Shown piece after piece: positions 57,558 through 59,005 of a DNA stretch of 64,000 bases. Under the pieces are notes generated by a model. It worked only from the letters and a program-made list of their open reading frames with translations. It was not told where the DNA came from and made no database searches. The DNA comes from Escherichia coli. Its GTDB lineage: Bacteria; Pseudomonadota; Gammaproteobacteria; Enterobacterales; Enterobacteriaceae. The stretch is taken from NCBI RefSeq assembly GCF_051903065.1, contig NZ_CP178438.1; one strand, 5' to 3'. Position numbers and translations under genes: made by a program. Within the stretch, counting starts at the first letter, position 1; each line of letters opens with the position of its first letter.

Positions 57558-57988
57558 CAGATCGTATAGGTCAAAAAAGTCTGTATTTGTCGGGAGCAGG
57601 ATTTTGTGTCCTGTTCGCGTTTCCTTTCTTCTTATTACTGGATAGCAAAAGTACGCTCATCATCTGGTGCAGTATGATCCTCGGCTACAACTTAGGTCCG
57701 ACGATGATGTTTGCCGTGCAGCCAACACTTTTCACCCGCATGTTCGGTACCAAAGTACGATATACCGGCCTTTCTTTTGCTTATCAATTTTCCGCGATTC
57801 TTGGCGGACTAAGCCCCCTTATCGCCTCAAGTTTGCTGGCGCTAGGGGGAGGAAAACCGTGGTATGTCGCTCTGTTTTTATTTGCTGTCTCAGTTCTTTC
57901 CTTTGTTTGCGTCTGGCTGATTGAGCCGACCGATGAACAAGAAACCGCTTCTTACCGCTACATCAGGGAACAATCTCATGAAAACTGA
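57558..57988 (+). pseudogene. 3' fragment of an MFS-type transporter gene (YihN-like by position), 5' end removed at IS1 junction
   Basis: Frame is open from the IS1 boundary (…DRIGQKSLYLSGAGFCVLF…) through hydrophobic helices to stop at 57986-57988; ORF track 57587..57988 is the internal TTG-initiated part. Confidence 0.7.
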
Positions 57989-58865
57989 ACGAAAAAACGA
58001 GCATTACCTGGCGCTACAACAGGCGTTTGACGCGCCATGGCCTGGGCCTGTAGGAGAGTTAGTGACGCTGGAAAAAGGCAATATTCACCTGCAGATTTAT
58101 CCGCATGATGGTGCCAGGATAACCTCGTTAAAGGCATTTGGTTCTGAAGTATTACGCCAATGGCAGCCGCAGCGTAGAGCTTTTCAGTATGGCTGTTTCC
58201 CAATGGTGCCGTGGGCAGGGCGACTGGGGAATACGACGCTGAATGCTGGTGGGCAATGTTATTCTTTACCCGCCAATAAACCACCACATGCGTTGCATGG
58301 TATGGCTTGTTACTCAACGTGGGAAATCATCGACAAAACAGCAGATTCCCTGACTTTACGTATGCCCCTGGCTTCACCGTGGCCTTGGCAAGGGGAAGTG
58401 ATTCAGACTTTTTTGCTGGAGAACGATGCGCTGGTTTTGCAACTGGAAGTCCATTCATATGCCGATACATTCCCGGCCTCCGCAGGCTGGCATCCGTGGT
58501 TTGCGAAAAAGCTGACTCCGCAAAATACAGAATCGTTGCAGGTGCTTTTTGATGCGGACTGGCAAGAAGAAGCGGGTAGTGATGAACTGCCAACTGGAAA
58601 TCGCATCTCTCCTCAAGTCGGTCCCTGGGATGACTGTTTTGGTTTTTATGACGGGGTGAAGGTTAAGTTACTGTGGCCTGGTAAACTCGCGATGACCATG
58701 ATCTCTTCTGCAAACAGTCTGGTGGTATTTGATAAACAGCCCGATGCCACCTGTATTAACCCGCTGACTCAGGCACCTAACGCAATAAATCTAACGCCGG
58801 AATTGGTGACACCAGATAGGCCGCTGGTTATCGAAACTCGTTGGCAATTTACACCTGAATCTTAA
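57978..58865 (+). CDS. aldose 1-epimerase family protein (YihR-like)
   Basis: ORF track 57921..58865; ATG at 57978 overlaps stop of upstream MFS fragment and is preceded by AGGGAA; galactose mutarotase-like sequence. Confidence 0.7.
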   Translation: MKTERKNEHYLALQQAFDAPWPGPVGELVTLEKGNIHLQIYPHDGARITSLKAFGSEVLRQWQPQRRAFQYGCFPMVPWAGRLGNTTLNAGGQCYSLPANKPPHALHGMACYSTWEIIDKTADSLTLRMPLASPWPWQGEVIQTFLLENDALVLQLEVHSYADTFPASAGWHPWFAKKLTPQNTESLQVLFDADWQEEAGSDELPTGNRISPQVGPWDDCFGFYDGVKVKLLWPGKLAMTMISSANSLVVFDKQPDATCINPLTQAPNAINLTPELVTPDRPLVIETRWQFTPES

Positions 58866-59005
58866 CCATTCATCTATTGCGAAAAAGCCAGTGAAATTAC
58901 TCTGCTTTTTCGCAATCAGCATCACAAGATTACCCTTATTGCCACATAGCCAAACCCATCCTTTCCCGCTACAGTTAATTTCTTGTGGCGCGAAAGGAGG
59001 CAAAA

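What the first reader, a model, noticed from the sequence alone, without database searches (positions are those of the whole stretch)
57558..59005. Gene content between IS1 and yihX does not match my recollection of the K-12 locus: only an MFS fragment and an aldose-1-epimerase gene, no ompL-yihO...yihW sulfoquinovose cluster
In K-12 as I recall it, yihN is followed by ompL and a block of about ten genes (yihO through yihW, sulfoglycolysis) before yihX, with yihR on the opposite strand. Here the transporter fragment is followed, with overlapping stop/start (cATGAaaacTGA), by a co-directional aldose-1-epimerase-family gene and then directly by yihX. Either this strain carries a different, compact sugar-handling module at this position, or a larger deletion/rearrangement accompanied the IS1 event. 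I cannot distinguish these without alignment and my memory of gene orientation in K-12 may be imperfect.
Basis: inference. Interest (0 to 1): 0.45.

Follow-up and report, generated by a model that had tools for sequence, protein, structure and literature searches.

The report
IS1-truncated remnant of alternative yih cassette
This strain belongs to the quarter of E. coli that carry a different gene cassette where K-12 has its sulfoquinovose genes, and an IS1-linked 9.6-kb deletion has removed nearly all of it, leaving a transporter fragment and one orphan mutarotase-like gene; this is ordinary genome decay at a published polymorphic locus.

Summary
Between IS1 (56790-57557) and yihX (59006) there is only a 3' MFS-transporter fragment and an overlapping 295-aa aldose-1-epimerase-family gene. 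The K-12 ompL-yihO...csqR cluster is absent.

About 24% of complete E. coli genomes (1326 of 5426) carry an alternative 8.7-kb cassette at this locus instead of K-12's 11.9-kb cluster. This is the published "short yih cassette" (Kaznadzey 2025). Here a clean 9,628-bp deletion, bounded by one IS1 with no target-site duplication, removed yihM (after codon 27), yihN and seven and a half cassette genes.

The MFS fragment is not yihN. It matches residues 308-449 of the cassette's ShiA-like transporter at 100%. The epimerase is not yihR (27% identity).

The same junctions occur in three RefSeq genomes, so this is known and ordinary.

One side result may be new. The "short cassette" is really a conserved 8-gene unit (regulator, kinase, reductase, aldolase, Zn-dependent polyol-type dehydrogenase, two MFS transporters, mutarotase-like protein) found across alpha-, beta- and gamma-Proteobacteria. 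Its sulfonate-binding residues are intact, its entry chemistry is uncharacterised, and the canonical catalytic Glu is Asn in the surviving gene.

The parts
56709..56789 (+). 5' stub of yihM (27 codons), cut by IS1
   Evidence: Collinear with yihM of E. coli M8 and strain 48 up to this base. Annotated as an incomplete CDS in the identical RefSeq genome 23CRST027.
56790..57557 (+). IS1 (IS1A-like), 768 bp, insA/insB on the + strand, with no target-site duplication
   Evidence: Terminal inverted repeats GGTGATGCTGCC... and ...GGAGTCATTACC, and A6C at 57096. The flanking 9-mers differ: gcctttcat on the left, cagatcgta on the right. It is 100% identical to the second IS1 in the window at 39380-40147, which does have a 9-bp duplication.
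57558..57988 (+). 3' fragment (last 142 codons plus stop) of the metabolite:H+ symporter-type MFS transporter of the alternative yih cassette; a pseudogene
   Evidence: 100% identical to residues 308-449 of WP_001291190.1 of E. coli M8, with no hit to YihN, YihO or YihP. The closest NCBIfam model is the shikimate transporter/MHS family, C-terminal part only.
57978..58865 (+). Intact 295-aa aldose-1-epimerase-family (mutarotase-like) gene, the last gene of the alternative cassette, now separated from its operon
   Evidence: Pfam PF01263 at 76.7 bits. 99.3% identical to the M8 orthologue and 26.8% to YihR. AlphaFold model has pLDDT 90.4, and Foldseek gives TM 0.73-0.80 to galactose mutarotases. 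His107, His172 and Asp218 are conserved, but the catalytic Glu position is Asn261.
58866..59005 (+). Intergenic region. The cassette-specific part runs to 58938; the part shared with K-12 runs from 58939. It contains a 12-bp perfect inverted repeat (58877-58888 / 58904-58915).
   Evidence: The blastn boundary with K-12 is at 58939. The inverted repeat was read from the sequence; the terminator scan did not call it because there is no T-run.
59006..59605 (+). yihX (glucose-1-phosphatase), conserved right flank of the variable locus
   Evidence: Annotated as yihX in 23CRST027, M8 and K-12 at the collinear position.

Best explanation
Window 57558-59005 is the right-hand remnant of the alternative ('short') yih cassette, which replaces the K-12 sulfoquinovose cluster between yihN and yihX in about a quarter of E. 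coli. In this lineage a single IS1 sits where 9,628 bp are missing. The missing stretch is yihM from codon 28, all of yihN, the DeoR regulator, PfkB kinase, sulfolactaldehyde-reductase homologue, class I aldolase, Zn-dependent dehydrogenase, the first MFS transporter, and codons 1-307 of the second MFS transporter. What survives is a dead transporter fragment and an intact mutarotase-like gene that has lost its operon promoter. The sequence of events I think most likely (inferred, about 0.55) is as follows. IS1 first inserted into the AT-rich 5' end of yihM, which is a recurrent IS1 target. It then made an intramolecular transposition into the MFS gene, an 'adjacent deletion', which removes the intervening DNA and leaves no target duplication. 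The alternative (about 0.4) is homologous recombination between two directly repeated IS1 copies. The expected consequence (inferred) is that this strain has neither version of the sulfo-EMP-type pathway and no yihM or yihN, and that the epimerase could be expressed only by read-through from IS1.
For: Collinearity: window 52133-56789 matches M8 L004 1368-6024 and window 57558-60906 matches L004 15653-19001, so 9,628 bp are replaced by 768 bp of IS1. The break points are the same against the closest intact relative, strain 48 (99.3-99.7% identity). The intact cassette at this locus is annotated in M8, strain 48 and 2015C-3121. Population counts: alternative cassette at 80% coverage or more in 1326 of 5426 genomes, K-12 type in 3884. 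The polymorphism is published (PMC12608037). There is no target duplication at this IS1, whereas the identical IS1 at 39380-40147 has a perfect 9-bp duplication, CCAGGCCAG. Both junctions recur as single contiguous matches in three independent complete assemblies: 23CRST027, 23CRST031 and ECNB21-M121. These genomes are IS1-rich, with 27-37 matching places against a median of 10. The locus is a repeated IS1 target. 2015C-3121 has an IS1 one base away with its own duplication and an intact cassette. 2022CK-00450 and LD27-1 carry independent IS1-bounded deletions here, in the short-type and long-type cassette respectively. About 30 genomes have IS1 joined to the yihL/yihM 5' region. The only promoter-like match in 56600-59100 is IS1's own.
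Against: No sequenced intermediate has exactly this left or right junction with the cassette still intact, so the order of events and the choice between one-step transposition and two-copy recombination remain unresolved. The loss of the pathway elsewhere in this genome was not checked directly. It rests on the statement in PMC12608037 that short-cassette strains have no long-cassette homologues elsewhere. Expression of the orphan gene was not measured.
Confidence: 0.93

Rival explanations
1. The ancestor carried the K-12-type long cassette. IS1 deleted most of it, and the surviving epimerase is a diverged yihR and the MFS fragment a piece of yihN, yihO or yihP.
For: Both proteins belong to the same broad families as YihR and the Yih transporters.
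Against: The epimerase is 26.8% identical to YihR over 164 aa and lies on the opposite strand from K-12 yihR. The MFS fragment has no BLASTP hit to YihN, YihO or YihP and is 100% identical to the alternative cassette's transporter. There is no blastn similarity to K-12 across 57558-58938.
Confidence: 0.01
2. The strain naturally has a compact two-gene module (transporter plus epimerase) at this site, and IS1 merely inserted into the transporter without deleting anything else.
For: The stop/start overlap of the two genes looks like a native operon junction.
Against: A simple insertion would leave the 5' part of the transporter on the other side of IS1 and a 9-bp duplication. Instead the left flank is yihM codon 27 and there is no duplication. 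Intact relatives have 9.6 kb more DNA here.
Confidence: 0.01
3. The deletion arose by RecA-dependent recombination between two directly repeated IS1 copies, one in yihM and one in the MFS gene, rather than by one-step IS1 adjacent deletion. The end product would be the same.
For: These genomes hold 27-37 IS1-matching places. 2015C-3121 shows that two IS1 copies can sit in this very cassette, although there they are in inverted orientation. The absence of a duplication fits this route equally well.
Against: No genome with a second IS1 at the 57558-equivalent site was found among 5426; the right junction occurs only in the three deleted genomes. The yihM end is the repeated target, and the two other independent deletions examined also run rightward from a +-oriented IS1 in the yihM-yihN region.
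Confidence: 0.4
4. The junction is an assembly artefact, a collapse across a repeated IS1.
For: IS1 is multi-copy, and a second identical copy lies in the same window.
Against: The same two junctions are present in three separately sequenced complete genomes from Ecuador and China.
Confidence: 0.02

Closest known systems
[quoted passage not shown] 2025, Int J Mol Sci 26:10351, PMC12608037)
   Same: Same locus between yihN and yihX, with reversed orientation relative to K-12. The yihW/V/U/T homologues are about 67-73% identical to K-12's (the paper gives 72% for YihW). The surviving window DNA is 99-100% identical to the right end of that cassette in intact strains.
   Different: In the window, the four genes that define the published cassette are deleted. 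The paper describes the cassette as a truncated yihTUVW and does not mention the adjacent Zn-dependent dehydrogenase, two MFS genes or the epimerase gene. Those are the part that survives here.
K-12 sulfo-EMP cluster ompL-yihOPQRSTUV-csqR (Denger et al. 2014; Sharma et al. 2021, PMC8006165)
   Same: It occupies the same chromosomal slot. The alternative cassette keeps the sulfonate-recognition residues of YihV (K27, N109, R138), YihT (K193, S226, S227, R253) and YihU (R123, N174, S178).
   Different: No sulfoquinovosidase (yihQ), isomerase (yihS), porin or GPH-type transporters. The DNA is only about 66-67% identical where it can be aligned at all. None of it is present in the window.
IS1-mediated adjacent deletions (classical IS1 deletion formation near gal in E. 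coli; from my own knowledge, not checked here)
   Same: A single IS1 is retained at the deletion joint, one junction is presumably original, and there is no target duplication.
   Different: Nothing unusual. The only local feature is that the yihM 5' end seems to be hit repeatedly.
E. coli K-12 YphB (PDB 3NRE), a putative aldose 1-epimerase encoded next to the Zn-binding dehydrogenase YphC
   Same: It is the closest solved structure to the surviving gene product (Foldseek E 2e-21, TM 0.77; 26% identity). Both are encoded beside a Zn-dependent medium-chain dehydrogenase and sugar transporters.
   Different: YphB keeps the catalytic Glu (E253), whereas the window protein has Asn261. YphC is only 23% identical to the cassette dehydrogenase. 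The function of YphB and YphC is itself unknown.

Membership tests
Alternative ('short') yih cassette of E. coli | Lies between yihN and yihX; the right boundary lies 67 nt upstream of yihX | tested here: met
   K-12 homology resumes at window 58939, the same boundary as in M8 (L004 17034 matches K-12 L003 17487).
Alternative ('short') yih cassette of E. coli | Contains the diverged yihW/V/U/T homologues in reversed orientation | tested here: not met
   They are deleted in the window but present in the intact relatives M8, strain 48 and 2015C-3121. The window therefore holds a remnant, not a cassette.
Alternative ('short') yih cassette of E. coli | Near-identity of the remaining DNA to the cassette's 3' end | tested here: met
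   1342 genomes cover 80% or more of 57558-59005, with 99.6-100% identity among the best 30 listed. The MFS fragment is 100% and the epimerase 99.3% identical to M8.
K-12 long sulfo-EMP cluster | Presence of yihQ, yihS, yihR, yihO, yihP and ompL | tested here: not met
   No blastn match to K-12 in 57558-58938. BLASTP finds only a weak YihR hit, 26.8%.
YihR sulfoquinovose mutarotase (NCBIfam NF011719 equivalog) | Score above the curated cut-off | tested here: not met
   33.8 bits against a cut-off of 251.
Aldose 1-epimerase / galactose mutarotase family (PF01263) | Pfam model above the gathering score | tested here: met
   76.7 bits against 27, covering residues 28-212.
Aldose 1-epimerase / galactose mutarotase family (PF01263) | Mutarotase beta-sandwich fold | tested here: met
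   Predicted model has pLDDT 90.4 and pTM 0.90. Foldseek gives TM 0.73-0.80 to the B. subtilis, L. lactis and human mutarotases and to YphB. This is a prediction, not a solved structure.
Aldose 1-epimerase / galactose mutarotase family (PF01263) | Two catalytic histidines (E. coli GalM H104 and H175) and the Asp | tested here: met
   H107 and H172 are invariant in 33 family members and align with GalM H104 and H175. D218 is invariant.
Aldose 1-epimerase / galactose mutarotase family (PF01263) | Catalytic general-base Glu (GalM E309, YihR E273, YphB E253) | tested here: not met
   The aligned residue is Asn261 ('CINP' against 'CLEP', 'AVEP', 'ALES'). In the family sample 18 members have Asn and 15 have Glu. 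This rests on a MAFFT alignment at 15-27% identity, but the local motif is unambiguous.
Aldose 1-epimerase / galactose mutarotase family (PF01263) | Mutarotase activity | not testable with these tools
   Needs an enzyme assay.
IS1 insertion sequence | 768 bp, terminal inverted repeats, insA/insB with the A6C frameshift site | tested here: met
   Annotated as IS1A-like in identical genomes.
IS1 insertion sequence | 9-bp target-site duplication of a simple insertion | tested here: not met
   The flanks are gcctttcat and cagatcgta. This is expected for a deletion joint. The other IS1 in the window has CCAGGCCAG on both sides.
Metabolite:H+ symporter (MHS) MFS transporters | Full 12-helix protein | tested here: not met
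   Only the last 142 of 449 residues remain. They match positions 311-433 of the 438-position ShiA model.

The most novel reading that the evidence does not exclude
The surviving gene is the last member of an unrecognised, self-contained 8-gene sulfosugar cassette, not of a 'truncated' yihTUVW. The cassette comprises a DeoR regulator, a PfkB kinase, a beta-hydroxyacid reductase, an aldolase (class I, or class II by displacement), a polyol-type Zn-dependent dehydrogenase, two MFS transporters and a mutarotase-like protein. It is conserved as a unit, with unrelated flanks, in all 7 alpha-, beta- and gamma-proteobacterial orthologue loci examined. It keeps every sulfonate-binding residue of the sulfofructose kinase, aldolase and reductase, and it has no isomerase or sulfoquinovosidase. 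Its yihTUVW homologues were reported not to respond to sulfoquinovose in Nissle 1917. It may therefore encode a new entry route into sulfoglycolysis. One possibility is oxidation of a 6-sulfo-hexitol, or of another sulfosugar, to sulfofructose by the dehydrogenase, assisted by a mutarotase-fold protein that in many members has lost the canonical catalytic Glu.
Probability: 0.4. Interest if true: 0.6.

Novelty: already known. Interest (0 to 1): 0.25.

Why it matters
For this window it matters little. It is a lineage-specific IS1 deletion at a locus whose two-allele polymorphism is already published, and the same structure is annotated in three RefSeq genomes. It does predict that this strain lacks both versions of the sulfo-EMP-type pathway, plus yihM and yihN.

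The wider point concerns the "short cassette", carried by about a quarter of E. coli including ST131, ATCC 25922 and O104:H4. It appears to be an intact, horizontally mobile 8-gene pathway of unknown substrate rather than a degenerate fragment. That would change how the long/short polymorphism and its reported association with pathogenic strains should be interpreted.

Tried and rejected
1. MFS fragment = yihN, yihO or yihP. Rejected: no BLASTP hit.

2. Epimerase = yihR. Rejected: 27% identity, opposite strand, and it fails the NCBIfam equivalog.

3. Simple inversion of the K-12 cluster. Rejected: the shared genes are only 66-67% identical in DNA and the other genes are unrelated.

4. Search for an evolutionary intermediate with the same IS1 junction and an intact cassette. 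The one candidate, 2015C-3121, has its IS1 one base to the left with its own 9-bp duplication, so it is an independent insertion. The two extra hits for the right junction are different events.

5. Literature searches for a characterisation of the dehydrogenase-containing cassette: the 2026 review, the class II aldolase survey, and the supplement of the 2025 paper. Nothing was found. The library is incomplete, so this does not prove absence.

6. Promoter scan for a new promoter driving the orphan gene. It found only IS1's own promoter-like site.

7. More distant Streptomyces homologues of the epimerase (45-48% identity). The one locus examined (P0119) is not in such a cassette, so the linkage holds for the proteobacterial clade only.

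8. Pfam on the long ORF after fabY: no significant family.

Full report
**1. What is in the window**

The gene order is as follows:
- glnA (-, 52169-53578)
- typA (53951-55774)
- yihL (55991-56701)
- a 27-codon stub of yihM (56709-56789)
- a 768-bp IS1 (56790-57557)
- an in-frame C-terminal MFS fragment (57560-57988)
- a 295-codon aldose-1-epimerase-family ORF (57978-58865) whose ATG overlaps the MFS stop by 11 nt
- 140 nt of spacer
- yihX (59006-59605), then yihY, dtd and fabY

Pfam assigns the ORF to Aldose_epim (76.7 bits against a cut-off of 27) and the fragment to MFS/Sugar_tr.

**2. Comparison with K-12**

blastn of the window against this region matches up to 56789 (within yihM) and again only from 58939, which is 67 nt before yihX. 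Nothing in 57558-58938 matches K-12.

At the protein level:
- The MFS fragment has no hit to YihN, YihO or YihP.
- The epimerase is 26.8% identical to YihR over 164 residues.
- The epimerase scores 33.8 bits against the NCBIfam YihR equivalog, whose cut-off is 251.

**3. What the DNA really is**

Megablast of 57558-59005 against 5,426 complete E. coli genomes finds the whole segment in 1,342 of them.

In intact carriers such as E. coli M8, the slot between yihN and yihX holds eight genes:
- a DeoR regulator (-)
- a PfkB sugar kinase (-)
- a sulfolactaldehyde-reductase homologue (+)
- a DeoC/LacD-type aldolase (+)
- a Zn-dependent alcohol dehydrogenase (+)
- a 477-aa MFS transporter (+)
- a 449-aa MFS transporter (+)
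- the aldose-1-epimerase gene (+)

The window's MFS fragment is residues 308-449 of the 449-aa transporter at 100% identity. The epimerase is 99.3% identical to M8's.

The alternative island (8,684 bp in M8) is present at 80% coverage or more in 1,326 genomes, including ST131, ATCC 25922 and O104:H4. The K-12 island (11,915 bp) is present in 3,884. Together that is 96% of genomes, which fits two alternative alleles of one locus.

The regulator, kinase, reductase and aldolase are 72, 67, 73 and 67% identical to CsqR, YihV, YihU and YihT. At the DNA level the two islands align only in reverse, at 66-67% identity. The alternative island is therefore a diverged xenologue, not a recent inversion.

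This polymorphism was published in 2025 as the 'long' (ompL-yihOPQRSTUVW) and 'short' (yihTUVW) cassettes. They share the same locus in reversed orientation and are scattered over the phylogeny. The short form was not induced by sulfoquinovose in Nissle 1917 (PMC12608037).

**4. The deletion**

Against M8, window 52133-56789 matches L004 1368-6024 and window 57558-60906 matches L004 15653-19001. So 9,628 bp are missing and 768 bp of IS1 stand in their place.

The closest intact relative, strain 48 from a deer (99.3-99.7% identical in the flanks), gives the same break points and the same 9,628 bp.

The lost stretch comprises:
- yihM from codon 28
- all of yihN
- the regulator, kinase, reductase, aldolase and dehydrogenase
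- the first MFS gene
- codons 1-307 of the second MFS gene

The IS1 has no target duplication: the left flank is gcctttcat and the right flank is cagatcgta. A second, 100% identical IS1 in the same window (39380-40147, opposite strand) is flanked by a perfect 9-bp duplication, CCAGGCCAG, and serves as an internal control for a simple insertion.

Both junctions occur as single contiguous matches in only three other complete genomes: 23CRST027 and 23CRST031 (human faeces, Ecuador) and ECNB21-M121 (meat, China). That excludes an assembly artefact and shows a rare, lineage-specific event. Over 52000-64000 the window differs from 23CRST027 by a single base, inside IS1.

These genomes hold 27-37 IS1-matching places, against a median of 10.

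**5. Mechanism**

A single IS1 at a deletion joint with no duplication can be produced in two ways. One is IS1 intramolecular transposition (adjacent deletion). The other is recombination between two direct IS1 copies. I found no intermediate that decides between them.

The left end looks like the primary insertion site:
- About 30 genomes have an IS1 joined to the yihL/yihM 5' region.
- 2015C-3121 has one inserted a single base away, with its own duplication (TGCCTTTCA) and an otherwise intact cassette.
- LD27-1 and relatives, which have the long-cassette type, carry an IS1-bounded deletion from yihM into yihQ.
- 2022CK-00450 has yet another, from yihN into the same MFS gene, again sparing the epimerase.

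The right junction of the window is unique to the deleted lineage. I therefore favour insertion in yihM followed by adjacent deletion (about 0.55) over two-copy recombination (about 0.4).

No sigma-70-like site other than IS1's own lies between 56600 and 59100. The epimerase has therefore lost its native promoter, the divergent kinase/reductase intergenic region, and could only be read through from IS1. This last point is inference.

**6. The surviving gene**

A model built on 33 homologues is confident (pLDDT 90.4, pTM 0.90). It superposes on galactose mutarotases and on E. coli YphB (3NRE) with TM 0.73-0.80.

In an alignment with GalM, YphB and YihR:
- The two catalytic histidines (H107, H172) and the aspartate (D218) are conserved.
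- The general-base glutamate (GalM E309, YihR E273, YphB E253) is Asn261, in a 'CINP' motif.

Among 33 family members, 18 have Asn and 15 have Glu:
- Asn: E. coli, Citrobacter, Klebsiella, Enterobacter lignolyticus, Vibrio, Sutterella, Succinatimonas.
- Glu: Rhodopseudomonas, Budvicia, Limnobaculum, Rhodovastum, Streptomyces.

The protein has the mutarotase fold but fails one defining catalytic feature. Whether it still mutarotates a sugar is open.

**7. Side result: the 'short cassette' is an 8-gene unit**

The 2025 paper treats it as a truncated yihTUVW and does not mention the four downstream genes.

I looked at seven proteobacterial orthologues of the epimerase: Enterobacter lignolyticus, Rhodopseudomonas palustris BisB18, a Sutterella MAG, Vibrio rhodolitus, Budvicia diplopodorum, Rhodovastum atsumiense and Succinatimonas. 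All seven sit in the same eight-gene cassette with unrelated flanks. One is next to an integrase. None has a GH31 sulfoquinovosidase or a YihS-type isomerase.

In Vibrio and Budvicia a class II aldolase replaces the class I enzyme. That is the displacement already known for sulfofructose-phosphate aldolases (PMC10665668).

Between E. coli and R. palustris:
- The aldolase, dehydrogenase and two transporters are 67-73% identical.
- The epimerase is 52% identical.
- The kinase, regulator and reductase are only 27-29% identical.

All published sulfonate-pocket residues are conserved in the E. coli alternative proteins (residues from PMC8006165; mapping):
- YihV: K27, N109, R138
- YihT: K193, S226, S227, R253
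- YihU: R123, N174, S178

The reductase passes the NCBIfam sulfolactaldehyde-reductase equivalog, 582 bits against 348.

The dehydrogenase belongs to the polyol-dehydrogenase branch of the Zn-dependent medium-chain family. Its best solved relatives are RspB, ketose reductase, threonine, sorbitol and arabinitol dehydrogenases, and galactitol-1-phosphate dehydrogenase.

A mutarotase-like gene next to a Zn-dependent dehydrogenase also occurs at yphB-yphC in K-12.

This suggests a distinct sulfosugar route that converges on sulfofructose phosphate, with an unknown entry step. I found no paper describing it, but the searchable library is incomplete. Nearly all of this cassette is deleted in the window, so this is context rather than a property of the finding.

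**8. Verdict**

- The implied identity of the fragment with yihN is wrong.
- The structure is a known polymorphism plus an ordinary IS1 deletion that is already present and annotated in RefSeq genomes.
- Interest is low for the finding itself.
- The unrecognised extent of the alternative cassette, and the Glu-to-Asn change in its mutarotase-like protein, are the only parts that merit follow-up.

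Noticed in passing
window 39380-40147 (- strand): A second IS1, 100% identical to the one at 56790-57557 but in opposite orientation, flanked by a perfect 9-bp target duplication (CCAGGCCAG). It splits an ORF (39077... / 40172-41326) downstream of a 208-aa ORF at 38338-38964. It is a simple insertion, in contrast to the deletion joint at 56790.
   Followed up: partly
window 61900-64000: Right after fabY the G+C content drops from about 0.54 to 0.33-0.42. 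A long ORF starts at 62306 and runs off the end of the window (at least 564 aa, no significant Pfam family). K-12 similarity ends at 62370. M8 has different genes here (hydrolase, nadS). 23CRST027 and strain 48 annotate it as a truncated hypothetical protein plus a 'transposase'. This looks like another variable spot.
   Followed up: partly
L004 8350-17033 (E. coli M8); L007, L008, L009, L013, L018, L019, L020: The published 'short yih cassette' is an 8-gene unit (regulator, kinase, reductase, aldolase, Zn-dependent dehydrogenase, two MFS transporters, mutarotase-like protein). It is conserved with unrelated flanks in alpha-, beta- and gamma-Proteobacteria. A class II aldolase replaces the class I enzyme in Vibrio rhodolitus and Budvicia, and an integrase lies next to it in Budvicia.
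   Followed up: partly
window 58758-58760 (codon 261 of the epimerase): The canonical general-base Glu of mutarotases is Asn in this protein and in 18 of 33 family members. These include orthologues in intact cassettes of Citrobacter, Klebsiella, Vibrio and Sutterella. R. palustris, Budvicia and Streptomyces keep Glu.
   Followed up: partly
yihL-yihM region of other E. coli genomes (L005, L010, L011): The 5' end of yihM and yihN is hit repeatedly by IS1, with about 30 genomes affected. At least three independent IS1-bounded deletions remove parts of either cassette type. 2015C-3121 carries two IS1 copies in the cassette without any deletion.
   Followed up: partly
L017 9470-10480 (E. coli strain 48): In the closest intact relative of the window's lineage, the cassette's Zn-dependent dehydrogenase is annotated as a pseudogene with an internal stop. 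This hints that the cassette was already decaying in this clade.
   Followed up: no
L015 2817-4762 (K-12 yphB-yphC): The closest solved structure to the epimerase, YphB, is encoded next to a Zn-binding dehydrogenase (YphC) and an ABC sugar transporter. The pairing of a mutarotase-like protein with a Zn-dependent dehydrogenase therefore recurs in an unrelated, uncharacterised K-12 operon.
   Followed up: no
window 58877-58915: A perfect 12-bp inverted repeat (TTGCGAAAAAGC / GCTTTTTCGCAA, 15-nt loop) lies just after the epimerase stop. The terminator scan did not call it because no T-run follows.
   Followed up: no
window 57287: The only difference between the window and RefSeq genome 23CRST027 over 52000-64000 is one extra G in a G-run inside IS1. 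This explains why that genome's IS1 is annotated as 'frameshifted' while ECNB21-M121's identical-to-window copy is annotated as 'programmed frameshift'.
   Followed up: yes
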